Assembly: GCA_963818095.1 (NCBI GenBank)
Contig: CAWFRA010000001.1
Span: forward strand, 7,558-71,557
Direction of reading: 5' to 3'
Source of the DNA: an uncultured delta proteobacterium
GTDB lineage: Bacteria; Desulfobacterota; Syntrophorhabdia; Syntrophorhabdales; WCHB1-27
Length of the DNA: 64,000 nt
A program made the translations under genes and the position numbers. The notes beneath the pieces were generated by a model. That model saw nothing but the letters and a program-made list of their open reading frames with translations. It did not search any database and was not told the origin of the DNA. Positions 24,450 to 50,806 of the stretch are shown one piece after another; the stretch's first letter is position 1; the number at the start of each line of letters is the position of its first letter.

Positions 24450-24455
24450 TTGTGC

Positions 24456-24592
24456 GCGGCGGCGTCTGAGGCGCATCTTTGGGGTCGCGCTTCGCCCTGC
24501 GGGACTCCGACGTACAAAAGAGTACGCCTCCGTTCCTCGGGCTCGCGCTCACCCAAATCTGCATCCTCATACTTGCCGCTCTTTAGTGGTGC
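24456..24592 (-). repeat. MITE-like element, family B copy 2, inverted relative to copy 1
   Basis: 24467-24578 is a 112-bp perfect reverse complement of 19316-19427. One terminal inverted repeat is degenerate here. Confidence 0.8.
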
Positions 24593-24901
24593 GGGTCATC
24601 TACCCGCTTTACTCGACTTTCGGGGCATCCATCGGAAATCTCCCGCCCACACCGGACCCTGTTCCGTTTTGTCGAGGCGCTGCAATCTCCCGTACCCTGG
24701 CACTGCGGCGCTGCCCCGTGCCTTCTTCATGTCCCTTGTCCCCTGGGTGAGGGTAGAATGAGGGGTTTATGCCTATGGGTTTGGCCTTACAAGTTCTTTT
24801 ACAAGATTTTCCTTACCCTGAAACAACACAGTATGGTAATGAATAACCATGTAGAGGCGAAGAAATAGCCGGAATTAAGGTCTGATCGCTGGGGTCTAGG
24901 T

Positions 24902-27028: not shown

Positions 27029-27482
27029 AAAACCAACCGACAAAGAAGGTCATTCTATTGTCAGTCTTGCCGAAATTTGCTGAAAAAATCCTATCGGGGT
27101 TGAAGACAGTTGAATTAAGAAAAATACGCCCAAAAATCAGCGCGGGAGATCTAATTTTGCTTTACGTTACCTCTCCAGAAAAGTCTCTGCAGGCCATTCT
27201 CAGAATCAGCGACGTGAAATGCGATAGCCCGGATGCACTCTGGAAACACGCTCGCACGTGCGTCGGATTATCTTATACCGAATACAAGACCTACACTTTA
27301 ATGGAAGATCGATAGGTTATGCAATATATTTCGACAGGGTCGTGTCGCTATCTAATTCTTTATCCCTGCACATGTTGCGAAGCGTTTCGCCTGGTTTCCA
27401 ACCTCCGCGAATTCATCAGTATTTTTCTATTCGCGAAGTACATAATTTCATGCGTCGTCTTCGTGAACAGCAATCTCGTTAG
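27025..27482 (+). CDS. Small ASCH-domain protein, translationally coupled (TTGA overlap), with one frameshift near 27290
   Basis: KVILLSVLPKFAEKILSGLKTVELRKIRPKISAGDLILLY..LQAILRISDV, continued in the next frame as GRSIGYAIYFDRVVSLSNSLSLHMLRSVSPGFQPPRIHQYF. Confidence 0.6.
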
Positions 27483-27514
27483 AACATTGGCCCTGAAAGT
27501 GTTGACGTTCATCT

Positions 27515-27742
27515 TCACCTCCCCTGCTTTAGTCCCTTACAAAAATTCTCATGCACGCCGAGGGCAAGCAGCGAGAGGTTTTCCGCGTCGAATTTGTAGG
27601 CGAGGAGGTACTGCCGGTCGCCCGCGCGCCGCTTATAGACGCGAACGCCTGCGAGGTCGCTACGCTTTTCTTCGCCGCAGGTGGGGTCGCTCATGATGCG
27701 GCGGATGGCGCGGATTGACCTACCATTATCGTATAGCGTCAT
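27515..27742 (-). CDS. RelE/ParE-like toxin, short form
   Basis: The C-terminal pattern LAGVRVYKRRAGDRQYLLAYKFDAENLSLLALGVHENF resembles RelE/ParE (..YRiiY.i....i.vl.vgHR..). No convincing antitoxin lies upstream. Confidence 0.45.
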   Translation of the reverse strand: MTLYDNGRSIRAIRRIMSDPTCGEEKRSDLAGVRVYKRRAGDRQYLLAYKFDAENLSLLALGVHENFCKGLKQGR

Positions 27743-27944
27743 TCCTGCCGCTCGTGCACCTCACACTCTTGTGTAACTCATCACCCTTTTTCCAACGCCG
27801 AACCACCATTGTCCTTCGATACATACATAAATGTCTTGCAAATAATTCTATACCTGTGTTAGAAAGGAATTTGAGCGGTAATGTCCCGTAGAGGATTCTT
27901 TGGGTTAATAATGATTCTATCCTCCATATAACGGGAGAGACAAA

Positions 27945-28055
27945 TTGCTGCATTTTATTTTTGAGCTGTTCGCGAATTCAACTATTCTCGTCTTAATAGG
28001 GGTCCTCGTTCTAATAATAGTTGGCTTTATAGTGCGCGGGGAATGGAGGCTTTAG
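27945..28055 (+). CDS. Possible 36-aa single-TM hydrophobic peptide
   Basis: GGGAGAG (27933-27939), a 5-nt spacer, then TTG. Peptide (M)LHFIFELFANSTILVLIGVLVLIIVGFIVRGEWRL. It is too short for the supplied ORF track. Confidence 0.3.
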   Translation: MLHFIFELFANSTILVLIGVLVLIIVGFIVRGEWRL

Positions 28056-33846: not shown

Positions 33847-35111
33847 TTAAGACGTAGGAGGTGAGGGCATAATCTGAGCCGGGTAAAGATCCGGAAAGAG
33901 GTAGCCCGCAACAAAGATGGGAAACGCCAATCTCACTGGCCCCTTGGGCGTATCGGAAACAAGCAATCCCTCACTCAACAACTGCCCGAGCAGTATCCGC
34001 CCGGTTCGTTCCGCCATGCCGGAGACCCGGATTATGTCTCCTCTTGCTACCTCGCCCCCAGCAAGGCTTCCTGTAGCATGTAAGCGGCCTCCGGCTTCAG
34101 CGTGGTTGGCCCTGTTTGGGCGGGGGCGCAACCTGGGCCGGGGGAGCTAAGTATCCGTTTATCCGGTCCAGCAACGCATTGAGTCCCAGCAAACCCCTCA
34201 TGTAATCAATCTGGGCAATACAGACGTCAAAGAAGAAGTTGCAAAACCTGAAAACCTTCATGCGAAAATTTCCCCGGCCATCGTAATCATTGCGGCGTGC
34301 TGCATCCGCCCACGTAAGAGCCGTCATGTAGTCTTCTCTCCGGCGGGCGAGGCCCCGGCTTACATTCCATAGACCGTATCCGGTAAGGGCAAACTTCAAA
34401 AACAGGCTCTTATCGAGACGCGCTACCCTGCCGTTTCCATCCAGGAATGGGTGAATCCACACGAGGCGGTGATGAGAGCTGCTGCGGCAATCAATGGTAT
34501 GATGCCGTGATGTCTATCGCTTCCGTAGAAGTCAGCGAACCGTTCTAAAAATGCCGGTACGGCATCAGCCTCCGGCCCTGCATGGCGCGCAACCCTAACC
34601 TCCCTTTCTCGTAGCTTGCCGCCAATTACTTCGAGCACTTCCCCTGTCGTACCATCCCTTACGAGTCGCAGCCTTTCGGGGAGTCGGTCATAGAAAATCT
34701 TATGCAGCCAGCAAAGAAAAGGTGTAGCCGCCACGTTCAAGTCCGGCTCTATCTTAAGCCGCTCCTCCATCTGACGCTGACACTCAATGTGGGCCAAGTT
34801 TTCCTGTTGTAAATCCCGCTTAACCGGGTCACGGTCATAGTCCTCCCGCATTGCCTCTTATATAGCTATAGAATGGGGACTGGCCCCTCGATGAGGTTCG
34901 AGTAATAACTATTTATAAGCCGAAAGACCTCAATACAGGCTGTAGGCTGATCGGAGGCAGAAACAGACAAGTAGCGCGGAACGGTCAACCATCTGCCGCG
35001 CTTTATCTTCCAAAGCCATACTTGGGCAGGAAGCAGCGGTTCCATCTGGTGTATTTTATCATACATCTGCCGATCTTGTTGCCGAAAGGCATGGTCACTA
35101 TTCTTTAACAT
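33847..35111 (-). pseudogene. Fic/DOC (Fido) family protein with a C-terminal winged-helix region, broken by about three frameshifts
   Basis: Collinear fragments are 34866-35111 (..SNLIEG), 34423-34851, 34097-34462 (Fic motif IHPFLDGNGRVARL) and 33847-34131 (wHTH-like GDIIRVSGMAERTGRILLGQLLSEGLL). Confidence 0.75.
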
Positions 35112-35710: not shown

Positions 35711-36301
35711 ATGAAAGAGAAGAAGAGCACCAGCATAAGGAAGGGAGAGATCGTGCAGGCCGCCTTCGAGGTATTGGGCAAGGGCGGCGTTAAGTCGGTT
35801 ACTATCGCGGAGATCGCGAAGGCCGCCGGGATGAGCCAGGCAAACATTTACAGGCATTTCAAAGGCAAGGAGGCCATCTATTCATCCCTCGCGGACTTTA
35901 TCGGCGCCGAGGTAATGGGCAAGGCGTCAACCATCGCGGCAGGCAGCAAGAGGCCCGCTGAAAAGCTGGAGACGATCTTTTTCTCACATATGACGCTGAT
36001 TAAGGACCATCCGGGCATGCCCCGCCTGATCTTTTCCGAGGACGTGCGCCTGGGCAGCAAGAGGGTGGGAGAGAAGATCTCAGCGCGCTTGCGGGGCTAC
36101 GTGGAGACGCTTGCGGGCATAATCGCAGCAGGCGTCGAAGAGGGCGATTTCCGCAAAGGACTGTCGCCGAGGGAGACGGCGCTCACCCTTCTCGGCCTGA
36201 TACAATCGACGGCATTGCGCTGGACCATCGGCAGCGAGACTTTCGACATCAGGGATGAAGGGCAGAAACTGTGGAGCAATTTCATGCGCCTCGTCTCCTG
36301 A
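35711..36301 (+). CDS. TetR/AcrR-family transcriptional regulator
   Basis: N-terminal HTH IVQAAFEVLGKGGVKSVTIAEIAKAAGMSQANIYRHFKGKEAI. Confidence 0.85.
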   Translation: MKEKKSTSIRKGEIVQAAFEVLGKGGVKSVTIAEIAKAAGMSQANIYRHFKGKEAIYSSLADFIGAEVMGKASTIAAGSKRPAEKLETIFFSHMTLIKDHPGMPRLIFSEDVRLGSKRVGEKISARLRGYVETLAGIIAAGVEEGDFRKGLSPRETALTLLGLIQSTALRWTIGSETFDIRDEGQKLWSNFMRLVS

Positions 36302-36319
36302 TAATTTTTTTGCGCATGA

Positions 36320-36337
36320 TGTGAATGTATATTCACA
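36320..36337 (+). promoter_or_regulatory. Second copy of the GTGAAT-N4-ATTCAC palindrome, upstream of the VKOR-like gene
   Basis: tGTGAAT-gtat-ATTCACa, 25 nt before the 36362 start. Confidence 0.45.
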
Positions 36338-36361
36338 TCAATCCACTTCTGGAGGTGTTCG

Positions 36362-36808
36362 ATGAAAAAGTCAGCGACGTACGTGATGCTCGTGTGCGCG
36401 TTAATCGGAATGGCCATCGCCTCTTACGACTGCTATATGATCTACGCCGGCCAATTGCTCTGGTGCCCGCCCCCCATAGACGGGTGCAATACCGTTGCCT
36501 ACAGCCCCGACGGCCGCATATGGGGCGTGCCCATAGGCTGCTTCGGCCTCTGCTTCTACGCAGTCATGTTCGTTCTCGCGGCGCTGCTTGCGTTCGGCCC
36601 GTCCCCGCAAAGCTTACGCCTGGCCGTGCTTGTCTACACGGTGCTCGGCGTCTGCGGCTCGATAGGCTTCATGTACCTGGACCTCGTGTTCATCCGCGCC
36701 TTCTGCATCTATTGCCTCATATCCGCAATCAATACCGTAGTGCTGCTGGTATCGGCAATCGTGTACTACAGGGCGGGGGCAAAAGCCGGCGAGCCGGTCG
36801 CCGGTTAA
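36362..36808 (+). CDS. VKOR-family (vitamin K epoxide reductase-like) membrane thiol oxidoreductase
   Basis: Four predicted TM segments, loop cysteines (WCPPPIDGCN) and a CxxC in a TM helix (FCIYCLISA). Confidence 0.65.
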   Translation: MKKSATYVMLVCALIGMAIASYDCYMIYAGQLLWCPPPIDGCNTVAYSPDGRIWGVPIGCFGLCFYAVMFVLAALLAFGPSPQSLRLAVLVYTVLGVCGSIGFMYLDLVFIRAFCIYCLISAINTVVLLVSAIVYYRAGAKAGEPVAG

Positions 36809-36847: not shown

Positions 36848-37288
36848 CTATGCGGTCGGTCCGTAAAGCGATTCGGGCAGCGATTCTATGTAAGCCCTGA
36901 TCTCGTCGCGCACGCGCCGGTAGTGGCCCATCGCCTGCTCTTCGTCAGGGGCGCCGGCCGCGAGGCGCGGCGGGTCGTCGAAGGCGTGATGGATCAGGGC
37001 GGTTTTGGCGGGGAAGAAGGGACACGATTTCTGCGCGTCGTCGCACAGGGTGATGACGTAATCAAACTCCGTGTCCAAAAAGTCCATAGCCGATTTGGAC
37101 CGCCGGCCGGAGATATCGACTCCTGCCTCGGCCATGGCCCGCACGGCCCGCGGATCGACCGCCTTAGGCTCCGTACCCGCCGAGTGTGCGTCTATGACAT
37201 CGGCCTTTAAGTATTTAGCCCATCCTTCGGCCATCTGGCTCCGGCAGGAGTTACCCGTGCAAAGGAACAATATTTTCAGCTTTGGCAT
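36848..37288 (-). CDS. arsC: Arsenate reductase, LMW-PTP/thioredoxin-coupled type
   Basis: P-loop LCTGNSCRSQMAEG plus the downstream Cys pair ITLCDDAQKSCP. The start overlaps the hgcB 3' end by 13 nt. Confidence 0.85.
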   Translation of the reverse strand: MPKLKILFLCTGNSCRSQMAEGWAKYLKADVIDAHSAGTEPKAVDPRAVRAMAEAGVDISGRRSKSAMDFLDTEFDYVITLCDDAQKSCPFFPAKTALIHHAFDDPPRLAAGAPDEEQAMGHYRRVRDEIRAYIESLPESLYGPTA

Positions 37289-37581
37289 GGACTATCGTCC
37301 TCGACGACGCAGCAGGCCGTCTTTCTGCCGAGCATCTGGTTGATCATGCCGGCCGCGCAGCCGACGCCCGCCCTTACATCGAGGGCGCCGCTCGGGCAGT
37401 TGCGCCTGCACGCGCCGCACTCCATGCATGCGTCGCGCGAGGCGACCTCCACCTTGCCGTCCGAGGCCCGGAACACCTCGCGCGGGCAGACGGCGAGGCA
37501 CATACCGCAGCCGGTGCACTTCGCTGCATCGAACGCGAGGGTGGTTACATCGTCGAGGTAAAGCAAAGGGCGCACAGGCAT
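37276..37581 (-). CDS. hgcB: HgcB, the 2x[4Fe-4S] ferredoxin of the mercury-methylation pair
   Basis: CTGCGMCLAVCP and the diagnostic CMECGACRRNCP, GVGCAAGMI, and vicinal C-terminal cysteines (TACCV). It starts immediately downstream of the hgcA stop. Confidence 0.8.
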   Translation of the reverse strand: MPVRPLLYLDDVTTLAFDAAKCTGCGMCLAVCPREVFRASDGKVEVASRDACMECGACRRNCPSGALDVRAGVGCAAGMINQMLGRKTACCVVEDDSPCQS

Positions 37582-38647
37582 CTATCCTCCCGTTACAACG
37601 GCGGCAATCCACAGAATGAGGCCGCACGCCATCCCCGCGATCTCGAGCGGCAGGGCGACGCGCATCTCCTTTCGGACGCCGGAAAGCGACGTAAACGTGG
37701 ACGCGCCGGTGAAGTTCATCGCCAGAAATGCGGCCATTGCCGGAATGAAGACGAGCGCCGCGAGGACCGCAGCCGCGCTGTTATGGAGCGCGCCGCCGAC
37801 CAGCGCAACGCAAAGGCCGAAAAGAATACCCAGGCCGAGCCCCTTTGTTGAAAAGGCCCTGCCTGGGAGCCACGGCAGCAACACAGGCGTGAGTACGGCG
37901 CCCGCGAGGACCGCTGCGCCGAGCCAAACGCCGGCGAGCAAGGTCCAGCCTGCCGCCTTCGACGGCGAGAAGCCGGAAATGAAATAAGAGAGGACACACA
38001 GCGCCGCAGCCGCGACGATGCCCCACTTTACGGCAGGCACGACTTCTATTGGGACCAGGGCGAGCCTTTCGGCGAGCGGGAAATCTTTTGTCCGCATCCG
38101 GCCCGTCGCTTTGAGGCCGCCATCCAGAAAGGCGGGCAGGTCGTCTGCACGGACAGGTCCGTAGACCACTTTGAACCCGGAGCGCCGCCTCACCTCGTGG
38201 GCCGATACGCCCGGCGCGCCCAACTGGGGCACGATCAACCGCCTGTGGGACACGACCTCGGCAAGGCCGCTCGCCGCAATGCGCTCCACAAGCTCGTCCG
38301 TGCCGAATGTGCCCTTCCCCGCCGCGCACCACACATTGATGCCCTTCGTATCGAGCACGAGTATCCAGCCGTCTATGCCTGCGAGGGCCCGCCGCAGCAG
38401 GTCGAACGTCATCTTGTAGTTGGCCGTGACGAAAACGGGCGATTCCGGACGGGCGTTGCCTATGGCATACAGGCCGGGGTCAACGGTATAGTGCCATGCG
38501 GCCGATACCCCACCGGGACTTCCACGCCCCGAGGCGGTCCGACCGGGAGAACACGTGCGAAACCAGCGCCACCGGGCCGGCAGCGGTATCTATGGAGCCG
38601 GTCACGAAAACCTGCTCCATTCGCGGCGGACCCGCCTGGGTCCGCAT
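37582..38647 (-). CDS. hgcA: HgcA, the corrinoid mercury-methylation protein, with one apparent 1-nt insertion near 38494
   Basis: Cap-helix signature GINVWCAAGKGTFGT, upstream VDPGLYAIGNARPESPVFVTANYKMTFD, and a C-terminal multi-TM domain. Removing one base from atgGcac restores ..FVTGSIDTAAGPVALVSHVFSRSDRLGAWKSRWGIGRMHYTVDPGLY from the ATG at 38647. Confidence 0.8.
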
Positions 38648-38784
38648 CTTCGGCCCTCAACAGGATTGCAGCGGCAGGCGTTTCTATCTCACAATGGGTT
38701 TCCATATTTTCATAATATGCCTTTTCGATGTCCATGTCAAGACTACATATCAATCAGTTTCAATGTAGCATCAAAATTATTTGG

Positions 38785-38813
38785 TTGACACCATGCATAG
38801 TATGCGTTATTTA
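38785..38813 (+). promoter_or_regulatory. Putative arsR promoter with a palindrome in the spacer (divergent hgcA/arsR control region)
   Basis: TTGACA (38785-38790), 17 nt, TATTTA (38808-38813). The palindrome GCATA-g-TATGC (38795-38805) lies in the spacer. Confidence 0.35.
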
Positions 38814-38843
38814 TATTCATTATACTTGATGTAACCGGAGGAT

Positions 38844-39204
38844 ATGATGGACGAGCTTCTGTCCTTATTCAAGGCGTTGTCGGACGAAACGAGGCTCAGG
38901 ATAGTAAAGCTCCTGGAAGAACGGCGAGCTGTGCGTCTGCCACCTCGTGGCCGCCGTCGATATGCCCCAGCCGAAGGTCTCCTTCCACCTCAAGGCGCTC
39001 AAAGAGGCGGGGTTGGTGAAGGACAGGCGCGAAGGCAAATGGATGCACTACCGCCTCAATGAATCGGACCTCTTCAAGCGGCTCCTTTTTCTGTCGGTTG
39101 CGGAAAGGGTCCGTGACGAAGAGATCGCGTCCGACCGCGAAAGGCTGGATGCGTTCATGGCGTCGAAGGCGGATGCGGACGCAGCTTGCTGCGCAGGGGC
39201 ATGA
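38844..39204 (+). CDS. arsR: ArsR/SmtB-family repressor with one apparent 1-nt insertion near 38922
   Basis: [19 protein letters not shown], then in the next frame [32 protein letters not shown] (the canonical ELCVC As(III) site). The C-terminal tail ends ..DAACCAGA. Confidence 0.8.
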
Positions 39205-40298
39205 AAATGGGCGATGCAGCATCCGGCAGGCTTTCTTTCCTCGACCGTTTCCTGACGATATGGATATTCCTCGCCATGTTCGCAGGCGTAGGCTGGGGTT
39301 ACGCCTTCCCCGGCGTCGTCGGTTTCTGGGAGCGTTTCCAGAGCGGGACGACCAACGTCCCCATCGCCATAGGCCTTATTCTCATGATGTACCCGCCCCT
39401 CGCGAAGGTTAGATATGAGGAGCTCGGCGAGGTGTTCAAGAACTTCAGGGTGCTGGGCCTGTCGCTCGTGCAGAACTGGGTTGTCGGCCCCATCCTCATG
39501 TTCGTCCTGGCCGTTATCTTTCTGAGGGGCTACCCGGAATACATGGTGGGCCTCATCATGATCGGCCTGGCCCGCTGCATTGCCATGGTCATCGTCTGGA
39601 ACGACCTCGCCAGGGGCGACACCGAATACTGCGCGGGACTCGTAGCCTTCAACTCGCTCTTCCAGGTGCTTTTTTTCGCCGTGTACGCATACGTTTTTAT
39701 CACGGTGCTGCCCCCGATGCTCGGTCTGAAAGGGGTTGTGGTCAATATCACCATAGGTCAGATCGCAAAAAGCGTCTTTATTTACCTGGGCGTGCCTTTT
39801 ATCGCCGGGGTGGTCACCAGGTTTGTGCTCATCAACGTGAAGGACAAGAAGTGGTATCACGAGCGGTTCATTCCGAAGATCAGCCCCATCACGCTGGTCG
39901 CCCTGCTGTTCACCATCCTCGTCATGTTCTCCCTCAAGGGCGAATACATCGTCAGGATACCGCTCGATGTCGTCCGTATCGCGGTCCCGCTGCTCATCTA
40001 CTTCATCGTCATGTTCCTCGTCTCGTTCTACATGAGCGGGAAGGCAGGCGCGCACTACGGCCAGGCGGCGACCCTCTCTTTCACTGCCGCCTCCAACAAC
40101 TTCGAGCTGGCCATCGCCGTTGCAGTCGCCGTCTTCGGCATTAACTCGGGGCAGGCGTTTGCCGCCGTGATAGGGCCCCTGGTGGAAGTGCCCGTCCTGA
40201 TCAACCTGGTCCACCTGTCCCTCTGGTTCAAAAGGAAGTATTTCCCCTATGCGACGGAAACGGCAGTCGGTGTGTGCTACTACACGTGCAGGCAGTAA
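39186..40298 (+). CDS. acr3: ACR3-family arsenite efflux permease
   Basis: [24 protein letters not shown], ..[14 protein letters not shown].., about 10 TM segments, length ~360 aa. The start is probably an ATG at 39204-39210. Confidence 0.9.
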
Positions 40299-40389: not shown

Positions 40390-40633
40390 ATGCTGAAGTT
40401 TCCCGACGGCATCGCAAGTCCGCGTCAACGGCCTCACCGAGATACTGGCCGGCCTACACGCCGAAGGCAGGCAGGCGGACCGCGAGACGGCAAATGAGAT
40501 CCTCGAAAGGCTTGAAGCGAATAAGAACTTCATCCCTTCGTCGGGCCGCACCCGCACGGAGTACGCCCGCGTGCTGCTCGGCGAATACAGGCAGTACCTG
40601 AGCGAGCATGCCTCCGCAGACATTGGCGCCTGA
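40390..40633 (+). CDS. Possible small conserved ORF (~80 aa) with a 1-nt frameshift; function unknown
   Basis: MLKFPDG.. continues in the next frame as VRVNGLTEILAGLHAEGRQADRETANEILERLEANKNFIPSSGRTRTEYARVLLGEYRQYL. The 244-nt span is consistent with a single indel. Confidence 0.3.
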
Positions 40634-42515: not shown

Positions 42516-44236
42516 TTGGACTATACCATCCGCATCGGCGGGGAAGCCGGCCAGGGGATGCAGACTATCGGCGATGGCCTGGGGAAGATTTTTACCAGGT
42601 CGGGCTATCTACGTCTTCATCCACCAGGACTACGAATCGCGCATAAGGGGCGGGCACAATTTCTGTCCAGGTCAGGGTGTCGGACTCACCCGTCGGCTGC
42701 TCGCGCGACTGCGCCGATATCGTGCTCGCTTTCGACAGGGCGAGTATCGGCGAGACAGGCGGCAAACTCGCCCCGTCGGGCATAATCGTCTACGACCCCG
42801 CGATGCTAAAGGAGCACCACGAAGGCCCGCAGTTCCTGGAGGTGCCGTTCATCGAGCTGGCAACGCAGGACGGCGGCAGCAGGATCATGGCGAACACGGT
42901 TGCAACAGGCGCGCTGCTCGGCATGCTCGGCCTGCCTCTCGACGTCTACATGGACGTCATAAACAGGCAGATGCGCAAGAAAGGCGATGCGACCGTAGAG
43001 GAGAACCGGAAGGCCGCCGAAAAAGGGCGCGACTACGCGGCCGCCCACTGCACGCAATGCAGCTTCACGAAGGCCCCGCCCGGCCCGGCCCGCATGCTGA
43101 TCGACGGCAACGCAGGCATCGGCCTCGGCGCGGTGCTGTCCGGCTGCGGCTTCTATTCCGGCTACCCGATGACCCCGTCCACCGGCGTGCTCCTCTATAT
43201 GGCCGCCAAGGCGAAGGAATACGGCATGGTCGTGGAGCAGGCGGAGGACGAGATCGCGGCGATCAACATGGCCATCGGGGCATCCTTACGCAGGGCGGCG
43301 CGCCATGACTGCTACTGCCGGCGGGGGCTTTGCCCTCATGGTCGAAGGCGTCTCGCTGGCCGCGATGACGGAGACGCCCGTCGTGATCGTCGTCGGCCAA
43401 AGGCCCGCCCCATCGACCGGGCTTCCCACGCGCACCGAGCAGGGCGATTTGCTTTTCGTCCTGCACTCAGGCCACGGGGAGTTCCCCAGGGCGCTTTTTG
43501 CGCCGGGCTCGCCCGAGCAGGCCGTCTTTCTGACGAACAAGGCCTTCGACCTGGCGGAAAAATACCAGATACCGGCCTTCGTGCTGACGGACCAGTACCT
43601 TGCCGACTCATCCTGGACATACGACGGGATCAGACCGCGAAGATCGTCTATAAGGACTACCGCCTGCGGGACGACGCCGGCACGCAGGCGCGTCATACAA
43701 GCGGTACGCCTTCACCCCTTCCGGCATATCGCCCCTGGCGATTCCGGGCGCAGGACCGGCCCTCGTAGTCGATGACAGCGACGAGCACGACGAGGAAGGC
43801 CACCTGATCGAGGACGCGCGAGACCCGCGTAAAGATGGTGCAGAAGCGGCTGCACCTGAAGCTGCCTGCGCTACGCCAGGAGATCGCCCCTCCCCTGCTC
43901 TACGGCAGCCGCGCACCCGACGCGGTGCTCGTCGGCTGGGGCAGCACTTACGGCGTGCTGCGGGAGGCGGTCGATACGCCTCTCGTCCCGCAAAGAGATC
44001 GCCCTTCTCCATTTCAGCGAGATCTGGCCCTTCCCTTCGACGGAGGCGTTCGACTACATCGGGCCTGCTCAGGCGGCCAAAAAGACGATCTCCGTCGAGA
44101 ACAACGCGACGTCCCAGTTCGCCCGGCTGCTTGCGGCGGAGACGGGTTTTTCGTGCGCTGCGGCGATCAACAAATACGACGGCAGGCCGTACCTGCTGGA
44201 TGAGCTTCTGGAGGAGTTGGATGGCAGACTTGCGTG
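42516..44236 (+). pseudogene. korA: 2-oxoacid:ferredoxin oxidoreductase alpha subunit (gamma-alpha fusion type) with five or more frameshifts
   Basis: Collinear pieces in shifting frames: IRIGGEAGQGMQTIGDGLGKIF / YVFIHQDYESRIRGGHNF / [49 protein letters not shown] / [48 protein letters not shown] / ..[14 protein letters not shown] / ..[18 protein letters not shown]. Confidence 0.8.
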
Positions 44237-45070
44237 AGTTCGACGGCAGTCACGCCCGCCTGGTGCCCCGGATGCGGCAATTTCGGCATCCTCGGCGCCT
44301 TTAAGAAAGCGATGGCGGACCTCGGCCTCGAACCGCACCAGATCATCGTCGTATCCGGCATAGGCCAGGCAGGCAAGTTCCCGCACTATACGCGGTGCAA
44401 CACCTTCAACGGGCTGCACGGCAGGGGCCTGCCCGTTGCCACGGGCATCAAGCTCGCAGGCGCGCCCACGCCCGTCATCGCGGTAGCGGGAGACGGCGAC
44501 GCCTACGGCGAGGGAGGGAACCACCTTATCCACGCGATCAGGCGCAACATCGACGTCAAGTTCTTCGTCCACGACAACCAGGTCTACGGCCTCACCAAGG
44601 GGCAGGCGTCCCCCACCTCGATGCAGGGCATGAAGACGAAGGCCCAGCCGGAAGGCGCGCCCGCCGCTCCCCTCAACCCCCTGGCGCTGGCCATCGCCCT
44701 CGATTGCAGCTTCGTCGCGAGAGGCTACGCCGGAGACCAGGAGCACCTCGCCCTGATGATGAAGGAGGCGATCAACCATGAAGGCTTCGCCCTCTTCGAC
44801 ATCCTCCAGCCCTGCGTCACCTTCAACCACGTCAACACGTACCAGTGGTTCGCAAGCAGGGTCTACCGCCTCGACGCCTCCTACGACCCCACGAACAGGG
44901 CCGCCGCCTTCGCAAAGGCGCTGGAGCCACCCGACACGATCCCCCTGGGCATAATCTACCGCAACAACCGCCCGCCTTACACAGCCCGCGCCGACAAGGC
45001 CACGCCGCCCGCAGCCGGGGCGTCCTTGGACTCCACCAGACTCGCAGGGATACTCCGGGAATTCTACTGA
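44234..45070 (+). CDS. korB: 2-oxoacid:ferredoxin oxidoreductase beta (TPP-binding) subunit
   Basis: [54 protein letters not shown]. Confidence 0.85.
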
Positions 45071-45854: not shown

Positions 45855-46223
45855 ATGATAATCTTCAAGTCGTTCAAGATAGATGCGGCCCATCTCCTCC
45901 CCAATGTTCCGGTGGGCCACAAATGTTCACGCATGCACGGTCATGCGTTCCGGGTCGAGGTCCATATCAGAGGACCCCTGCAACCACGCACCGGGTGGGT
46001 CATGGACTTTGCAGACATAGCCAAGGCGTTTTGCTCCTCTTCATGACCAGTTGGACCATCGGTGCCTGAACGATATAGAGGGCCTTGAGAATCCGACATC
46101 TGAGAACCTGGCTCGCTGGCTATGGAAGCGCCTTAAGCCATCCCTTCCGGCCTTTGCAAGCTCATCGTGCAGGAAAGTCCTGAATCGGGATGCATTTATG
46201 AAGGCGAGTCCGAGGATGGTTGA
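45855..46223 (+). CDS. queD: 6-carboxytetrahydropterin synthase QueD with two compensating indels (~46030 insertion, ~46150 deletion)
   Basis: [38 protein letters not shown], then (+1) [39 protein letters not shown], then [21 protein letters not shown] at 46221. Confidence 0.8.
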
Positions 46224-46272
46224 TACCGGGCGATCAAGAACACATCATTGTCATGGCTATTCGTTGGGCGTG

Positions 46273-46417
46273 ATCTACCGCAACAACCGCCCGCCTTACA
46301 CCGCCCGCGCCGACGGGGCCACGCCGCCCGCAGCAGCAGCCTCCTTCGACCCCGGCCGCCTCGCAGGGATCATGCGGGAATTCTACTGACAGGCGTTTGG
46401 GTATTGACGGCCTTAGC
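46273..46417 (+). repeat. Diverged direct duplicate of the korB 3' end and its downstream sequence (partner 44954-45098)
   Basis: My manual alignment gives 125/145 identical positions. It still reads ..[38 protein letters not shown]-stop, versus korB ..[38 protein letters not shown]-stop. Confidence 0.85.
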
Positions 46418-46656
46418 TTGCCCCCGCCGTCAGACCTCTTCCATTTAGGGAGTAAGGGGCACCGAACGTTCAGGGCCTCGCGGCAGGGGGTCTTTCGGTT
46501 GTAAATATTTTTGTTTTTTTCCGTCAAGTTTCTCTTGCATTCGGCGCGTACGAGTGGTAATTGATAAATGGGTAGGCTGGGGGTCAACACCTCAGCAAGT
46601 GAAAAGGGTGAAGAACGCCCCCCTCGTCCCCACTATATCAAACCACAAAATTAATG

Positions 46657-46692
46657 TTGCACTTTAATCTGGGATTTGTATAATAGTCCCAG
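46657..46692 (+). promoter_or_regulatory. Putative promoter of the methyltransferase genes, with an inverted repeat bracketing the -10
   Basis: TTGCAC (46657-46662), 16 nt, TATAAT (46679-46684). CTGGGA (46669-46674) and TCCCAG (46687-46692) flank it. Confidence 0.45.
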
Positions 46693-46703
46693 AATGAGCG
46701 AAC

Positions 46704-48167
46704 ATGGCGTTTGAGACTCTGCTCGAAAGAGGCGACCTTGAGTGGTACGAAAGTCAGCTGGAAATGGCTGCACTTTTGCCATCGGGCGAGCCGGAAGTGG
46801 AGAACGAATTAGAGCAACTTTCCTCTCTTGATTCTACAGAAAGGGTCTTCGCAGAATTACAGTCAATCGATTGGGCGTTTACTAAAGATGAGACAAATTA
46901 CCTTTCACATGACATACACCCATATCCGGCAAAGTTTATACCGCAGATACCGCGCCACTTGATCTACGCCTATCTCTGCGCGGTGAGCTCGTTTACGATC
47001 CGTTCGGGGGGTGCGGTACAACGGCCCTAGAGGCAATTCTTTTGGGCAGGCACGCCTTAAGCTCTGATCTTAACCCTCTGGCAAAGGTGATCGGTGACGC
47101 AAAAACGCTCACTCTTACAAAGGAGGACGATGACGCCGTATGTGATTTTGTAGAGCAGCTTGTTTTGTTCTCCTCAAACCGTGATCGACTGAGGGGCGAA
47201 CTGAGTCAGCGCAGACGATTATCAACACCTCATTCCAGACATACCTAACATCTCCCGTGGTTCCACGAAAACGCTATCACCGAACTGGCGTATTTGCGCT
47301 GGCGTATTGAAAATCTTGGTTGCCTGAAAGCTCGGGCCCTTGCCTGCGTGTCGTTTTCGAAGTCTATTTTAAAAGCCTCATATCAGGACGGAGAAACGCG
47401 CTATGCGCGCAATCCGCGAAGTAGAAGCGGGCTCAATTATCCGATGGTTTGTAGCGAATCTTTCGACAGCGCTGAAGAAGGTACGTAAACTTGGTCCTCT
47501 TCTCCGATTTCGAGAAGCAATTTTCAAGACAATAGACCTGAGATTTCTTCCGATCGGAGAGAAGGAAGGGATGAGGGATGATAGGTTGGCAGACAACTCG
47601 GTCGACTTGATTGTTACTTCCCCCCCCTACCCGAACACAACAGACTACCATCTCTATCATCGGTTTCGGCTCTTCTGGCTTGGCTATAATCCTCGTGACC
47701 TGGGGCATGCTGAGATTGGCTCGCACCTAAGACACCAAAAAGAAGGAACCGGGTTTGACGGTTACCTTAAAGAAATGACGTTCTGTCTGCAAAAGATGAA
47801 GCAGGTCCTTCGCCCTGGTCGGTACAGTGTGATAGTCGTCGGAGATGGGGTTTTCAAGGGAAAAACATACAACACTGCGGAGCATCTTGGGAACGCTGCG
47901 AGAGAAATAGGTTTTGACGTCATTGGTACCTTGAATCGAGCGGTCCATGCCACAAAACGTTCCTTTATCTCCGCAGCAAGGCGGATGCGTACCGAAAACA
48001 TTCTTGTTTTGCGGAAACCAATGTGCGAAATAAAGCTTCAGCTCATCAAGCCACCCTGTGGAGCCTGGAATATTAGGAATAGCTTGATACCATGGGGATT
48101 GAAACATTTCGCCACAAAGCCCAAAGCATTGTGGGTAAGGAAATCTGAAACAAACAAAACGCTATAA
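46704..48167 (+). pseudogene. Amino (N4-C/N6-A) DNA methyltransferase 1, motif order I then IV (SPPY), with five or more frameshifts
   Basis: HDIHPYPAKFIPQIPRHLI / RGELVYDPFGGCGTTALEAILLGRHALSSDLNP / ..IPDIPNISRWFHENAITELAYL / ..DLIVTSPPYPNTTDYHLYH..RPGRYSVIVVGDG..ENILVLRKP. Confidence 0.7.
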
Positions 48168-48171
48168 GGCG

Positions 48172-49568
48172 ATGAAGGTATCAGCAAGCTTACCACTTTA
48201 CACATTGGGTTTGTCGCGCGCGAACTGTCCGAGGAAGCAACTTGGCAGGCAATAGTTGAAAATGGAGATATCCTCGCAGACCGGTCACAACATAAAGATC
48301 CAAAATATGCAACGCATGGTATTCATGCTTACAAGGGAAAGTTTTATCCTCAGCTTGCTAAAAGCCTTTTTAATCTCGCTCGCCTTGAGAATGGGCAGCG
48401 CGTTCTCGATCCATTCTGTGGCAGCGGAACCGTTCTGCTTGAAGGTTACCTGAACGGCCTCACTGCCTACGGGACGGATTTAAATGTGCTTGCCGTAAAA
48501 GTGGCACGTGTTAAATGAAATCATTCATGTTGATCCGTACCTGCGGGATCGGTTTTTGTCTCGTTTAGAAACACGATTAGAAACAATGGATGCTTCCGAT
48601 CACTGGCTCGATGTATTCACGGAGGTCGCTATCCAAGAGTTACAGTCCTGGTTCCCCAAACTCGTTCTGGCAAAACTGGGATGTCTTTTGCATAGCATCG
48701 GGGAGGTATCTGAACCACGCGTGCGTGAGTTTCTCGAAGTCATTGTGAGTAGCATCGTCCGGGACGTGTCCCAACAAAACCCCAGAGATTTACGGATTCG
48801 CCGGCGTCAAGAACCACTCACGGATGCGCCGGTATTGGAACTCTTCAAAGAACGTCTGCGCAGTATGCGCATACGGCTCCAACATTTTTCTGAGCGCTTA
48901 AAATATGCTCCGACAGCGTTTCATCCGGCCACAGCCATACATGGCGACTGTAGTGTTCCTAGTGTTTTTGAGGAAAATGGAATCGGGAGGTGTAGTATTG
49001 ATGCGATTATAACGAGCCCTCCATACGCGACCGCGCTTCCCTACATAGACACCGATCGCCTGATATCCTTTTACTTTTCGGCCTGAACTCACGGGAACGG
49101 CACGCTTGAAGCGTCACTCATTGGCAGCAGGGAAATTAGCAAAAAGAAAAAGAGAGATATTGATGAGTTAATTAACCGGAAAGTTTTTGATGGTATTCTC
49201 TCGGAAACCGCATGCTCCATCGTTCGAGAAGTGCGAGAGAGAGGAACAAAACAACCATCGTAGGGTTTCGGCGAGAAAACACTGCTGCGCTGCTTTATCT
49301 CTATTTCAGAGACATGGCTGTGGCGATGCGCAACCTTGATCCTATCCTCCGGCCTGGTGGGTCGGCCTTTTTTGTGATTGGAGATAACAAAACGACTGCG
49401 GGTAACGCAGAAGTGAAGATCACGAGTGGCCGCGTGCTACAAGAAATAGGCATGAGCATCGGATGGAAAGTGGCCGACGTAATCCCAATCACGGTAACGA
49501 CTGAGAACCGACTTCACGCTAAGAACAGCATCACTAAAAATGAGATCATCTGGTTCAGAAAAGCTTAG
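48172..49568 (+). pseudogene. Amino DNA methyltransferase 2, paralogous architecture, with three or more frameshifts (start uncertain)
   Basis: HGIHAYKGKFYPQLAKSLFNLARLENGQRVLDPFCGSGTVLLEGYLNGLTAYGTDLN / ..IDAIITSPPYATALPYIDTDRL / ..LRPGGSAFFVIGDNK..NEIIWFRKA. Confidence 0.7.
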
Positions 49569-50806
49569 AGCCAACCCATTTTGCGGGCCTGGGCCTTGCC
49601 TCCAGAGGGCATTATCTGATTGCAGGCGTTAAGATACTGCTCGTAAAGGGTACTCGCGGGCTGCCCTGGATTGAAAATATCCACATCATAATCGTGATCA
49701 TCCCCGGTCAGACGCATGACCATGATAGAGTACGGGGCGATCTTCGCAACGACATCAGGCGAAAACGTAATTCTTATCTCGGCCTTGGTCTCATAGTAGA
49801 CCGTGTTAAGTGTGAAGTTGGGTTTGCTCAGAGATAGATTACCAGCGGCGTCATAAACAGTAATGTTTACTACCGGTATGGGATGCGCTGCGGATAGGAA
49901 GGGTTGCGTGCGATTTTTGGCGTCGTCGAGCCGGTGAATGGAAATCCGAAAAACGCCGGGTTTTGATTCACCGCAATCTTGCTGAGAAACACTTCACCGT
50001 TATGGTGCGGCACGATCTGGATGACAAGCGCTTCAGCGGATAAGGTTGCAGGTGACGTTATTGCTTGTTGGGTTCCGGCTTGTGCTTGAGGTACCACCGG
50101 AATTATAGAAAATACCTGCTTCGGGATCGGGCTGGGTGGCCTCGGGTGAGTCCTTGGGAAATAACCCCTGAATAAGCTTCGCCGAGGCGGCCGATGGCGA
50201 CATGGCCGGAGGCGATCCTATTCTCTTTTGGCTGCTTTAGTCTTGTTACGACGTTCTCGTCGAAGATAATGTCCAGCTTCAAGTAGTGCCTCAATCAGCC
50301 TTTTCGTCAAGCTCCTGGGTCATGGAACAAGCGGCGGGTAGTAGCGAAGTCCATGAGGAGAGCGCTTCCTGAAACGTCGTTTCGTCATCTGGCCGATCAA
50401 GCTCGACTTTTACGGCGCCCTCTAAGTTGGTCTCAGTTCCACCAACAGTGAGGTTATGCGATCCTTGGTAACATACTGCATGGCTGTCACCAGAGAAAAG
50501 ATAGAACTTTGGGTGAAATGTAGCGTGGGTGTCGAGTGGAGAACATAGACCTTGCTGAACATCTGCAAATGCAAGCTCTAGTGCTTGCCTGCTCGTTCCT
50601 AAAAGATCGACACCGATGATGGCGTCTATGGTTTTGTTCTTCTGTTTCCACTCCTTTAAAGGCAGAGCAAGGCGAAGCATGGGTCCGCTTTTCGCGAAAG
50701 CAACAGAAAATCGAAACTGGTCGTAATCGGCGGAGTGTAAACAGGCCTTAAGCTCCTGTAAAAAGCGGTGAGTACCATCAAACTGATCAATCGGGCGAAG
50801 AAACAA
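49565..50806 (-). pseudogene. PLD/Nuc-family (HxK) nuclease with a ~200-aa C-terminal extension; candidate BfiI-like type IIS restriction endonuclease with about three frameshifts
   Basis: ORF 50291-50806 has TFHPKFYLF...CYQGSHNLTVGG (HKD motif). Downstream fragments in other frames (..LVIQIVPHHNGEVFLSKIAVNQNPAFFGFPFTG.. and PIPVVNITVYDAAGNLSLSKPNFTLNTVYYETKAEIRITFSPDVV..) run to the TAA at 49565-49567. It is convergent with the methyltransferases and overlaps them. Confidence 0.6.

What the first reader, a model, noticed from the sequence alone, without database searches (positions are those of the whole stretch)
36848..40298. Mercury-methylation genes hgcA-hgcB wired into an arsenic-resistance operon
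Seen in the sequence:
- The minus-strand run hgcA (37582-38647), hgcB (37276-37581), arsC (36848-37288) has no intergenic gap. The hgcA stop abuts the hgcB start, and hgcB overlaps arsC by 13 nt.
- This unit is divergent from arsR-acr3 across a 196-bp control region. That region holds a TTGACA/TATTTA promoter with a GCATA-g-TATGC palindrome in its spacer.
- HgcA has the diagnostic NVWCAAGKG cap helix and a TM domain.
- HgcB has CMECGAC and a C-terminal CC.
- ArsR has the ELCVC As(III) site plus an unusual C-terminal ..AACCAGA tail.

Established knowledge: ArsR-like regulators next to hgcAB have been reported.

Inference: here hgcAB appears translationally coupled to an arsenate reductase, implying arsenic (metalloid)-responsive co-expression of Hg methylation and As(V) reduction.

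Caveat: hgcA and arsR each carry an apparent 1-nt insertion (~38494, ~38922).
Basis: partly seen in the sequence, partly recalled or inferred. Interest (0 to 1): 0.7.

Follow-up and report, generated by a model that had tools for sequence, protein, structure and literature searches.

The report
Mercury-methylation genes beside arsenic-resistance genes
A Syntrophorhabdaceae-like bacterium carries its mercury-methylation genes (hgcA-hgcB) fused head-to-tail to an arsenate reductase gene and back-to-back with an arsenic sensor and pump; this type of linkage is already published, and the apparent gene breaks are most likely sequencing errors.

Summary
The gene order is real. On the minus strand it runs arsC, hgcB, hgcA; on the plus strand arsR, acr3. 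HgcA, HgcB and Acr3 pass their specific NCBIfam cut-offs. ArsC keeps the Cys10/Cys82/Cys89 set of thioredoxin-type reductases.

Three details of the finding need correction:
- hgcA starts about 58 nt further upstream, at 38705. It encodes a selenocysteine (UGA at 38659-38657, motif SC-U-GP) followed by a covarying SECIS-like hairpin. This matches Haft et al. 2022. The shared control region is therefore 138 bp, not 196 bp.
- The GCATA-g-TATGC palindrome is at chance level and is absent from the closest relative.
- The locus carries four single-base insertions, not two: two in hgcA, one in arsR and one in a small downstream ORF. Other genes in the window are also frame-broken, and the repaired genes show dN/dS of 0.05-0.26. 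Assembly error is the likeliest cause.

arsC directly after hgcB recurs in six related loci. hgcAB also sits inside ars operons in Kiritimatiellia and Fibrobacteraceae MAGs. McDaniel 2020, Gionfriddo 2022/23 and Peterson 2025 already describe hgcAB next to arsR, acr3 and arsC.

Verdict: a new member of a known kind. Co-transcription of hgcAB with arsC is likely. Control of hgcA by ArsR is plausible but not shown.

The parts
36848..37288 (-). arsC: low-molecular-weight-phosphatase-type, thioredoxin-coupled-type arsenate reductase, 146 aa
   Evidence: PF01451 at 72.6 bits. TIGR02691 at 129 bits, below its cut-off of 174. Best solved structure is B. subtilis ArsC 1JL3, E = 5e-31, with Cys10, Cys82 and Cys89 aligned. 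Of the 79 closest homologues, 39 have arsR and 38 have acr3 within 4 kb.
37276..37581 (-). hgcB ferredoxin, 101 aa. A GTG at 37575 is an alternative start that aligns with the L001 start. The 3' end overlaps arsC by 13 nt.
   Evidence: NF040864 at 116.6 bits, cut-off 99. Two CX2CX2CX3C motifs, Cys75, and CC at 90-91. The same overlap is present in L001.
37582..38705 (-). hgcA: 373 codons after removal of two 1-nt insertions. N-terminal extension METHCEIETPAAQSC-U-GPK, then a corrinoid-binding domain and about 5 TM helices.
   Evidence: NF040863 at 449.8 bits, cut-off 275. Repaired translation has only the UGA at codon 16 and the terminal stop. The extension is conserved in 20 of 21 related loci. 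Cap helix and TM segments.
38657..38659 (-). In-frame UGA, read as selenocysteine (C-U-G-P motif)
   Evidence: Conserved TGA in an (S/P/A)C-U-(G/P/A/S) motif in 20 loci, most often C-U-G-P; L169/P0007 has Cys at this position (SCCGS). Matches the PCUGP motif reported by Haft et al..
38627..38644 (-). SECIS-like hairpin CGGACCC-AGGC-GGGTCCG; its stem begins 13 nt after the UGA
   Evidence: RNAalifold gives 6 pairs, 4 of them with compensatory changes. 96.4% of cells are paired against 35-55% in slid controls. 11 double-change cells against 3.3±2.0, 0 of 500 shuffles.
38492..38495 (.). 1-nt insertion that breaks hgcA after codon 52 of the old model
   Evidence: Absent in L001, L002 and L008.
38670..38670 (.). 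1-nt insertion that breaks the N-terminal extension of hgcA
   Evidence: Absent in L001 and L002. Removing it restores METHCEIETPAAQSCUGPK, which matches L001 MKTHCEIETPAAQSCUGPK.
38712..38740 (-). Promoter-like site for hgcA: TTGACA (38740-38735), 17 nt, TATTAT (38717-38712). The -10 ends 6 nt before the ATG, which suggests a leaderless transcript (inference).
   Evidence: 11 of 12 consensus matches. CTTGACA and the ATATGGAA start box are invariant or nearly so in 9 loci.
38749..38753 (-). Conserved TTGAT box 13-14 nt upstream of the hgcA -35; candidate ArsR half-site (inference)
   Evidence: The position is invariant in 7 of 9 loci as scored. L002 lacks it and L007 was mis-anchored. TTGAT/ATCAA boxes total 33 against 7.0±2.6 in shuffles.
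38785..38813 (+). Promoter-like site for arsR: TTGACA, 17 nt, TATTTA (weak -10)
   Evidence: Sequence. The -35 (GTCAA in hgcA orientation) is invariant in 9 loci. It was not reported by the consensus scan because the -10 matches only 3 of 6 positions.
38795..38805 (.).
   Evidence: 1 observed against 0.88 expected. Broken in L001, absent in L002 and L003.
38826..38830 (+). Conserved TTGAT box between the arsR -10 and its RBS (GGAGG at 38837); inverted relative to the box at 38749-38753
   Evidence: ATCAA lies at -88 to -90 from the hgcA -35 in the loci as anchored. Coordinates.
38844..39204 (+). arsR: 119 aa after removal of a 1-nt insertion at 38918/9. Cys30/Cys32 (ELCVC) plus Cys115/Cys116.
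   Evidence: NF033788 at 106 bits, cut-off 55; PRK10141 at 93.8 bits, cut-off 97. The insertion is absent in L001, L002 and L008. ELCVCH and the C-terminal CC are conserved in 9 loci.
39201..40298 (+). acr3 arsenite efflux permease. Its ATG overlaps the arsR stop (ATGA).
   Evidence: TIGR00832 at 452.7 bits, cut-off 282.8. Junction sequence. The same 4-nt overlap is present in L161.
40390..40633 (+). Small ORF after acr3 (about 78 aa, no family) carrying a 1-nt insertion at 40411. In L001 it directly follows arsR.
35711..36808 (+). tetR (35711-36301) and a VKOR-family gene (36362-36808), convergent on arsC. A conserved neighbour rather than a demonstrated part of the unit.
   Evidence: Pfam and NCBIfam hits. 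The same pair occupies the same place in L161, L162, L168 and L169. It is absent from L001.

Best explanation
This is a compact metal(loid) locus in a Syntrophorhabdaceae-like genome. It consists of two divergent transcription units separated by 138 bp.

- **Minus strand.** A transcript that is probably leaderless encodes a selenocysteine-containing HgcA, HgcB and a thioredoxin-type ArsC. It is read as one mRNA. hgcB and arsC overlap by 13 nt, so arsC translation can be coupled to hgcB translation or can use its own GAGGA.
- **Plus strand.** arsR-acr3, joined by an ATGA overlap, followed by a small ORF.

The ArsR has an ELCVC pair plus a conserved C-terminal CC. It most likely binds the shared AT-rich region at conserved TTGAT/ATCAA boxes that flank both core promoters. 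On binding As(III) it would be released, switching on arsenite efflux, arsenate reduction and HgcAB together.

The four single-base insertions (two in hgcA, one in arsR, one in the small ORF) are most likely errors of a long-read-type assembly, so the genes are probably intact in the organism.

Shown: gene identities, junctions, synteny, the Sec codon with its hairpin, and promoter conservation. Inferred: the operator, arsenic induction, the leaderless start, and the error origin of the frameshifts.
For: **Identities.**

**Junctions.** There are no promoter-like sites between the hgcA start and the arsC end. The only terminator-like site is a weak hairpin inside hgcA, which is below chance.

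**Synteny.**
- The divergent arsR(-acr3)/hgcAB layout is present in 8 of the 9 closest genome loci, including the cultured Syntrophorhabdus aromaticivorans UI.
- arsC lies right after hgcB in the window, L001, L002, L161/L162, L165 and L166.
- L161/L162 are short-read contigs with the same gene order as the window.

**Unrelated lineages.** hgcAB is embedded in ars operons in Kiritimatiellia (L102, arsR-hgcA-hgcB-arsC-acr3) and Fibrobacteraceae (L137).

**Control region.** Both -35 boxes and the start box are conserved, and the TTGAT/ATCAA boxes are enriched.

**Selenocysteine.**

**Frameshifts as errors.**
- All four are insertions unique to the window.
- A pyruvate/2-oxoacid:ferredoxin oxidoreductase-type gene (Pfam POR and POR_N domains) has one Pfam domain split across two frames.
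- A Fic gene lies in four ORF fragments. Only one fragment hits Pfam Fic, and only over the C-terminal part of the model.
- A crude gene model flags 20 frame switches in 40 kb, some of which are true gene overlaps.
- The repaired genes have dN/dS of 0.14, 0.26, 0.15 and 0.05 against L001, with no further lesions.

**Literature.** An ArsR-like regulator controls hgcAB and responds to As in P. mercurii ND132. Presence of an arsR-like gene is linked to lower hgcA transcription in a lake.
Against: - No operator has been identified. The conserved boxes are about 75 bp apart and are not a classical 12-2-12 site.
- The ArsR studied in ND132 belongs to a different subfamily. It is co-directional with hgcA and has an RCVCGD...CYC motif; co-directional ArsR-likes of this type in the survey are only 38-41% identical to the window ArsR. 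That precedent therefore transfers only loosely.
- Four relatives in the same clade lack arsC after hgcB.
- ArsC and ArsR both score just under their equivalog or subfamily cut-offs.
- No reads and no second assembly of the same population could be found to settle the frameshifts.
- The selenocysteine machinery was not looked for in this genome. The window contains no tRNA gene.
Confidence: 0.6

Rival explanations
1. Adjacency without shared regulation. ArsR represses only arsR-acr3. hgcA-hgcB-arsC is driven by its own promoter and is expressed constitutively or under some other signal. arsC merely landed in a permissive slot after hgcB.
For: - The slot after hgcB varies between close relatives. 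It holds arsC in 6 loci, a CoA-disulfide-reductase-family flavoprotein in 3 (L167-L169) and nothing related in L163.
- Further relatives have unrelated genes there.
- The two -35 boxes are separate, and no palindrome overlaps the hgcA promoter.
- hgcA was originally thought to be constitutive.
Against: - The divergent arsR/hgcA pairing is held across HgcA identities from 93% down to 63% with a short, conserved control region.
- hgcAB sits between arsR and arsC/acr3 in unrelated phyla.
- There is experimental precedent for ArsR-family control of hgcAB.
Confidence: 0.22
2. The frameshifts are real. hgcA and arsR are recently inactivated pseudogenes, and the locus is decaying in this lineage. Loss of ArsR would leave acr3 and the remaining genes derepressed.
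For: - hgcA has two lesions and arsR one within 430 bp.
- None lies in a long homopolymer, the classic site of long-read errors.
- The sister genome L001 has lost acr3, so this locus does change.
Against: - Similar breaks affect housekeeping-type genes elsewhere in the window.
- Apart from the single inserted bases the reading frames are clean and under purifying selection.
- A related long-read-style contig, L168, shows the same kind of broken genes.
Confidence: 0.12
3. HgcAB itself acts in arsenic metabolism, for example by corrinoid-dependent methyl transfer to As(III) or thioarsenic species, and this is why it is recruited into ars operons. Mercury methylation would then be a side reaction.
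For: - hgcAB is placed repeatedly and in different arrangements inside ars operons in at least three lineages.
Against: - No mono- or dimethylarsenicals were detected in ND132 cultures.
- The authors' summary reports no significant loss of As resistance on loss of hgcAB.
- Most of the 80 closest hgcAB loci have no ars gene nearby.
Confidence: 0.06

Closest known systems
hgcAB gene neighbourhoods flanked by ars genes (McDaniel et al. 2020 mSystems, Fig. 6; Peterson et al. 2025 ES&T, Fig. 4c)
   Same: hgcAB lies immediately next to acr3, arsC and arsR.
   Different: - This is a Syntrophorhabdaceae-type lineage; the name does not occur in the main text of McDaniel 2020, Peterson 2025 or the 2023 rice-paddy study.
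- arsC overlaps hgcB by 13 nt.
- arsR is divergent from hgcA rather than preceding it.
arsR2-hgcA-hgcB operon of Pseudodesulfovibrio mercurii ND132 (Gionfriddo et al. 2022/2023)
   Same: An ArsR/SmtB-family regulator lies next to hgcAB. In ND132 it controls hgcAB and responds to arsenic.
   Different: - In ND132 arsR is co-directional and co-transcribed with hgcA, has a distinct four-Cys motif, and has no other ars genes nearby.
- Here arsR is divergent, has ELCVC plus a C-terminal CC, and is paired with acr3.
- Co-directional ArsR-likes of the ND132 type in the survey are only 38-41% identical to it.
Selenoprotein HgcA with an N-terminal PCUGP extension (Haft et al. 2022 bioRxiv)
   Same: An in-frame UGA in a C-U-G-P motif lies upstream of the formerly annotated start. 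The extended length of 373 aa falls within their 363-400 range.
   Different: The motif here is SCUGP; S. aromaticivorans UI has PCUGP.
Canonical arsR-arsC-acr3 arsenic resistance operons
   Same: The same three gene families are present. The closest ArsC homologues mostly sit in such operons. arsR and acr3 share an ATGA overlap.
   Different: arsC is detached from arsR-acr3 and placed behind hgcB on the opposite strand.

Membership tests
HgcA (NCBIfam NF040863) | Scores above the HgcA cut-off and above CFeSP paralogue models | tested here: met
   449.8 bits against a cut-off of 275. The CFeSP gamma model gives 77.5 bits (cut-off 306) and the HgcAB-like fusion model 204.6 bits (cut-off 285).
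HgcA (NCBIfam NF040863) | Cap-helix motif N(V/I)WC(A/S)(A/G)GK with the Cys ligand | tested here: met
   NVWCAAGK at residues 104-111 of the 354-aa model. CFeSP has no Cys at the aligned position.
HgcA (NCBIfam NF040863) | C-terminal membrane domain of about 5 helices | tested here: met
   Five hydrophobic segments between residues 195 and 354 by a Kyte-Doolittle scan.
HgcA (NCBIfam NF040863) | Uninterrupted reading frame | tested here: inconclusive
   There are two 1-nt insertions relative to relatives. They are probably assembly errors, but no reads are available.
HgcA (NCBIfam NF040863) | Hg(II) methylation activity | not testable with these tools
   Needs culture or a heterologous assay.
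Selenoprotein form of HgcA (Haft et al. 2022) | In-frame UGA in a C-U-G-P motif within an N-terminal extension, at a position where some homologues have Cys | tested here: met
   SCUGP in the window. 20 of 21 related loci have a TGA there, and L169/P0007 has SCCGS.
Selenoprotein form of HgcA (Haft et al. 2022) | SECIS stem-loop shortly downstream of the UGA | tested here: met
   A 6-7 bp stem beginning 13 nt after the UGA, with 4 of 6 pairs showing compensatory changes. 96.4% of cells are paired against at most 55% in slid controls.
Selenoprotein form of HgcA (Haft et al. 2022) | Genome encodes selA, selB, selC and selD | not tested
   The window has no tRNA gene and the rest of the genome is not available. 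The relative S. aromaticivorans carries another selenoprotein system.
HgcB (NCBIfam NF040864) | Above the cut-off; two CX2CX2CX3C motifs; conserved Cys around position 73; C-terminal Cys pair | tested here: met
   116.6 bits against a cut-off of 99. Cys at 22/25/28/32, 52/55/58/62, 75 and 90-91. The CC pair is followed by a 10-residue tail that is conserved in L001 and L003.
Thioredoxin-coupled LMWP-type ArsC (pI258 / B. subtilis type, TIGR02691) | Scores above the family cut-off | tested here: not met
   129.4 bits against a cut-off of 174.3. It is a divergent subfamily.
Thioredoxin-coupled LMWP-type ArsC (pI258 / B. subtilis type, TIGR02691) | CX5R P-loop with Cys10, plus Cys82 and Cys89 | tested here: met
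   Cys at 10, 15, 82 and 89, aligned with 1JL3.
Thioredoxin-coupled LMWP-type ArsC (pI258 / B. subtilis type, TIGR02691) | Nearest homologues lie in ars operons | tested here: met
   39 of 79 have arsR and 38 of 79 have acr3 within 4 kb.
As(III)-responsive ArsR (R773 / type-1 site) | Winged-helix ArsR/SmtB fold | tested here: met
   PF01022 at 70.5 bits and NF033788 at 106 bits.
As(III)-responsive ArsR (R773 / type-1 site) | Three-Cys site ELCVCDLC in helix 3 | tested here: inconclusive
   Only two of the three Cys are present (ELCVCHLV). A conserved C-terminal CC could supply the third ligand; that is an inference. PRK10141 scores 93.8 bits against a cut-off of 97.
As(III)-responsive ArsR (R773 / type-1 site) | Binds an operator in the regulated promoter and is released by As(III) | not testable with these tools
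   Only conserved TTGAT/ATCAA boxes were found.
Acr3 (TIGR00832) | Scores above the equivalog cut-off | tested here: met
   452.7 bits against a cut-off of 282.8.
ND132-type arsR-hgcAB operon | arsR directly upstream of hgcA, co-directional and co-transcribed; four-Cys ArsR2-type motif | tested here: not met
   arsR is divergent here. Co-directional ArsR-likes in L013 and similar loci carry RCVCGD...CYC and are 38-41% identical to the window ArsR.

The most novel reading that the evidence does not exclude
hgcAB was recruited independently into arsenic-resistance operons in several phyla and in different gene orders:
- acr3-arsR / hgcA-hgcB-arsC in this lineage;
- arsR-hgcA-hgcB-arsC-acr3 in a Kiritimatiellia MAG;
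- arsR-arsC-hgcA-hgcB-acr3 in a Fibrobacteraceae MAG.

The reading is that the selenocysteine- and corrinoid-containing HgcAB has a native role in handling arsenic or another thiophilic metalloid, and that mercury methylation is a by-product.
Probability: 0.08. Interest if true: 0.85.

Novelty: new member of a known kind. Interest (0 to 1): 0.3.

Why it matters
The native function and the regulation of hgcAB are open questions, and they limit prediction of methylmercury production. This locus adds a lineage in which hgcAB is joined to arsC in one transcription unit, next to a canonical-looking As(III) sensor. Syntrophorhabdus aromaticivorans UI is a cultured relative with the same divergent acr3-arsR/hgcAB layout. 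That makes arsenic control of mercury-methylation genes testable outside Pseudodesulfovibrio. The locus also shows that hgcA gene models need the Sec-containing N-terminal extension, and that frame breaks in such assemblies should not be read as gene loss.

Tried and rejected
- **Riboswitch or known RNA in the hgcA leader.** Nothing was found in the window or the control region. L008 gave only weak miRNA-like hits that reflect a palindrome.
Rejected: it is at chance level and not conserved.
- **MerA after hgcB in sister lineages.** Rejected: the 452-455 aa flavoprotein in L167 and L169 (truncated to 371 aa in L168) is of the CoA-disulfide-reductase/Nox type. TIGR03385 scores 357 bits; MerA scores 156 bits against a cut-off of 454.
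- **A second copy of the same population to settle the frameshifts.** The exact ArsC protein is not on record. The exact DNA pattern across the hgcA break gave 0 metagenome hits. The best HgcA in 5.8 billion proteins is the 93%-identical L001 protein.
- **Function for the small ORF after acr3.** No Pfam or NCBIfam hit, and it is found only in the window and L001.
- **Intrinsic terminators.** None lies between hgcB and arsC or after arsC. The only hit is a weak hairpin inside hgcA, below the chance expectation.
- **The published version of Gionfriddo et al. (PMC10132117).** Not held in the library, so the preprint was used.

Full report
**What is in the sequence**

On the minus strand, arsC (36848-37288), hgcB (37276-37581) and hgcA (ending at 37582) form an uninterrupted run. 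On the plus strand lie arsR (38844-39204) and acr3 (to 40298).

The hgcA stop TAG is followed directly by an ATG of hgcB. A GTG six bases further on aligns better with the start in the closest relative. hgcB and arsC overlap by 13 nt, and a GAGGA lies 9 nt before the arsC ATG. arsR and acr3 overlap by ATGA, which puts the acr3 start at 39201.

**Identity of the proteins**

- **HgcA.** The repaired protein scores 449.8 bits on the HgcA equivalog model (cut-off 275). It scores only 77.5 bits on the CFeSP gamma-subunit model.
- **HgcB.** 116.6 bits against a cut-off of 99.
- **Acr3.** 452.7 bits against a cut-off of 282.8.
- **HgcA features.** It has the NVWCAAGK cap helix and about five hydrophobic segments. 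The only solved relatives are the corrinoid domains of CFeSP, which lack the Cys.
- **HgcB features.** Two CX2CX2CX3C motifs, Cys75 and a CC pair. The pair is followed by a ten-residue tail that is conserved in relatives.
- **ArsC.** It has the low-molecular-weight phosphatase fold. It falls below the TIGR02691 cut-off (129 against 174 bits). It aligns with B. subtilis ArsC (1JL3, E = 5e-31) and keeps Cys10, Cys82 and Cys89.
- **ArsC relatives.** Of its 79 closest relatives in species-representative genomes, 39 have arsR and 38 have acr3 within 4 kb. It is therefore an ars-operon enzyme.
- **ArsR.** It has ELCVC (Cys30, Cys32) without the third Cys of the R773 site, plus a C-terminal CC. Both features are conserved in all nine related regulators.

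**Correction of the hgcA gene model**

Upstream and in frame lies TGA at 38659-38657, within Ser-Cys-TGA-Gly-Pro. Further upstream is a conserved ATG at 38705-38703. Reading through requires removing a single inserted base at 38670, which both L001 and L002 lack.

The doubly repaired gene has 373 codons and begins METHCEIETPAAQSC-U-GPKMRTQ. L001 reads MKTHCEIETPAAQSCUGPKMRTQ. S. aromaticivorans UI has PCUGP. The homologue P0007/L169 has Cys in place of the TGA (SCCGS).

This matches the report that most HgcA proteins are selenoproteins with a PCUGP extension upstream of the old start.

A hairpin begins 13 nt after the UGA: CGGACCC-AGGC-GGGTCCG, 38644-38627. In 14 diverse sequences it keeps 96.4% of its pairs, against 35-55% when the partners are slid. 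Four of its six pairs show compensatory changes. It has 11 double-change cells against 3.3±2.0 in shuffles. I read it as a SECIS element.

**The control region**

With the corrected start, the space between hgcA and arsR is 138 bp.

- The best sigma-70-like site is on the minus strand: TTGACA (38740-38735), 17 nt, TATTAT (38717-38712), matching 11 of 12 positions.
- Its -10 ends six bases before the ATG, and there is no Shine-Dalgarno sequence. A leaderless hgcA mRNA is therefore likely. This is an inference.
- The -35 boxes of both divergent promoters and the ATATGGAA start box are invariant or nearly so in nine loci.
It is already broken in the closest relative.
- What is conserved is a TTGAT box 13-14 nt upstream of the hgcA -35. 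An inverted ATCAA/TTGAT box lies between the arsR -10 and its ribosome-binding site. Such boxes total 33 against 7.0±2.6 in shuffles. Relatedness of the sequences inflates this figure. They are candidate ArsR sites, not demonstrated ones.
- No riboswitch or other Rfam family was found.

**The frameshifts**

Relative to L001, L002 and, where compared, L008, the window has single-base insertions at four sites:
- about 38492-38495, in hgcA;
- 38670, in the hgcA extension;
- 38918/9, in arsR;
- 40411, in a small ORF after acr3.

The same kind of damage appears elsewhere in the window.
- A pyruvate/2-oxoacid:ferredoxin oxidoreductase-type gene has one Pfam domain split between two frames, POR_N positions 2-58 and 58-160.
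- A Fic gene lies in four ORF fragments. Only one fragment hits Pfam Fic, and only over the C-terminal part of the model.
- A crude frame-aware gene model flags 20 frame switches in 40 kb of coding sequence. Some of these are true gene overlaps.

Against L001 the repaired genes have dN/dS of 0.14 (hgcA), 0.26 (hgcB), 0.15 (arsC) and 0.05 (arsR), with no other lesions. A related long-read-style contig, L168, shows similar breaks.

I conclude that assembly error is the likeliest cause. This cannot be proven here. No exact copy of the population was found in the protein or metagenome collections.

**How widespread the arrangement is**

- The closest HgcA is 93% identical, from MAG MFD02138.bin.2.11 (L001). 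The next relatives are Syntrophorhabdaceae, including S. aromaticivorans UI at 67%.
- The divergent arsR(-acr3)/hgcAB layout is present in eight of the nine closest loci.
- arsC directly after hgcB is found in the window and L001, with the same 13-nt overlap. It is also found in L002 (77-nt gap), L161/L162 (55 nt), L165 (33 nt) and L166 (54 nt).
- L161 and L162 are short-read contigs with the same order as the window, including the convergent VKOR and tetR genes.
- Four relatives lack arsC there. Three of them carry a CoA-disulfide-reductase-family flavoprotein in the same slot; it is not MerA.
- L001 has lost acr3 and lacks tetR-VKOR.
- Outside this clade, the ArsC survey turned up hgcAB inside ars operons in a Kiritimatiellia MAG (arsR-hgcA-hgcB-arsC-acr3) and a Fibrobacteraceae MAG (arsR-arsC-hgcA-hgcB-acr3). 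It found looser linkage in two more MAGs.

**Comparison with what is known**

- McDaniel et al. 2020 showed hgcAB flanked by acr3, arsC, arsM and arsR.
- Gionfriddo et al. showed that an ArsR-like regulator controls hgcAB in P. mercurii ND132 and responds to arsenic. They also noted co-location with arsC, arsB and arsM in MAGs.
- Peterson et al. 2025 saw acr3 and arsC near arsR-preceded hgcA genes, and lower hgcA transcription where arsR was present.
- A 2023 rice-paddy study repeats the point.

The association is therefore published. What differs here is the lineage, the divergent position of a canonical-looking ArsR paired with acr3, and the overlap of arsC with hgcB. The ND132 regulator belongs to another subfamily and is co-transcribed with hgcA, so its behaviour transfers only as an analogy.

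**Verdict**

- Co-transcription of hgcAB with arsC is very likely.
- Translational coupling is possible in this lineage only.
- Arsenic-responsive control through ArsR is the best available model, at roughly 0.6 confidence, but it is untested.

This is a new member of a known kind, of modest interest. Its main value is to point to a cultured relative in which arsenic control of hgcAB could be tested.

Noticed in passing
window 42516-44250 (+): A pyruvate/2-oxoacid:ferredoxin oxidoreductase-type gene (Pfam POR and POR_N domains) is broken by several frameshifts. The Pfam POR_N domain is split between two frames near 43290, and the crude gene model flags six frame switches between 43316 and 44235.
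   Followed up: partly
window 33847-35111 (-): A Fic-domain gene (HPFLDGNGR motif) lies in four ORF fragments. The matching stretch of L001 differs by 18 gap openings in 1.85 kb and also lacks a long ORF, so this may be a true pseudogene or a badly assembled stretch.
   Followed up: partly
window 40390-40633 (+); L001 4114-4350 (-): A small conserved ORF of about 78 aa (MLKFPDGSQVRVNGLTEILAGLHAEGRQ...) follows acr3 here and follows arsR directly in L001. It has no Pfam or NCBIfam family and was found only in these two genomes.
   Followed up: partly
L167 4904-6262, L168 4766-5881, L169 4973-6340: In sister lineages the gene right after hgcB is a 452-455 aa CoA-disulfide-reductase/NADH-oxidase-family flavoprotein (FSICGLPYY active-site Cys) instead of arsC. 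VKOR follows in all three, and tetR after it in L168 and L169. A thiol-redox enzyme in the arsC slot is unexplained.
   Followed up: partly
window 35711-36808 (+); L161, L162, L168, L169: A tetR-family regulator and a VKOR-family membrane thiol oxidoreductase are conserved neighbours. They converge on the hgcAB unit in several relatives but are missing from L001.
   Followed up: no
L163 2859-3314, L169 1408-1857: In some relatives a C_GCAxxG_C_C protein (PF09719) lies beyond arsR on the side where acr3 would be (directly adjacent in L163, about 1.1 kb away in L169).
   Followed up: no
L102 2336-5513; L137 3636-6905: Tight co-directional operons are present in two MAGs: arsR-hgcA-hgcB-arsC-acr3 in Kiritimatiellia and arsR-arsC-hgcA-hgcB-acr3 in Fibrobacteraceae. 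In neither did the script find an in-frame CU motif upstream of hgcA.
   Followed up: partly
L008 4789-4826 (S. aromaticivorans UI): A 35-bp near-perfect palindrome, ATATCAATACTATTTA-ATA-TAAATAGTATTGATAT, lies over the arsR promoter. It produced spurious miRNA-like Rfam hits and could be the ArsR operator in that species.
   Followed up: no
window 24000-28000 and 46000-50000: Two stretches have lower G+C (0.46-0.53 against about 0.60) and almost no coding signal under a codon model trained on the rest of the window. They may be foreign islands. The whole 64 kb has no tRNA gene and no Rfam family hit.
   Followed up: no
window 38844-38849: arsR begins ATGATG. Relatives align from the second Met (MDELL...), so the true start is probably 38847.
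   Followed up: no
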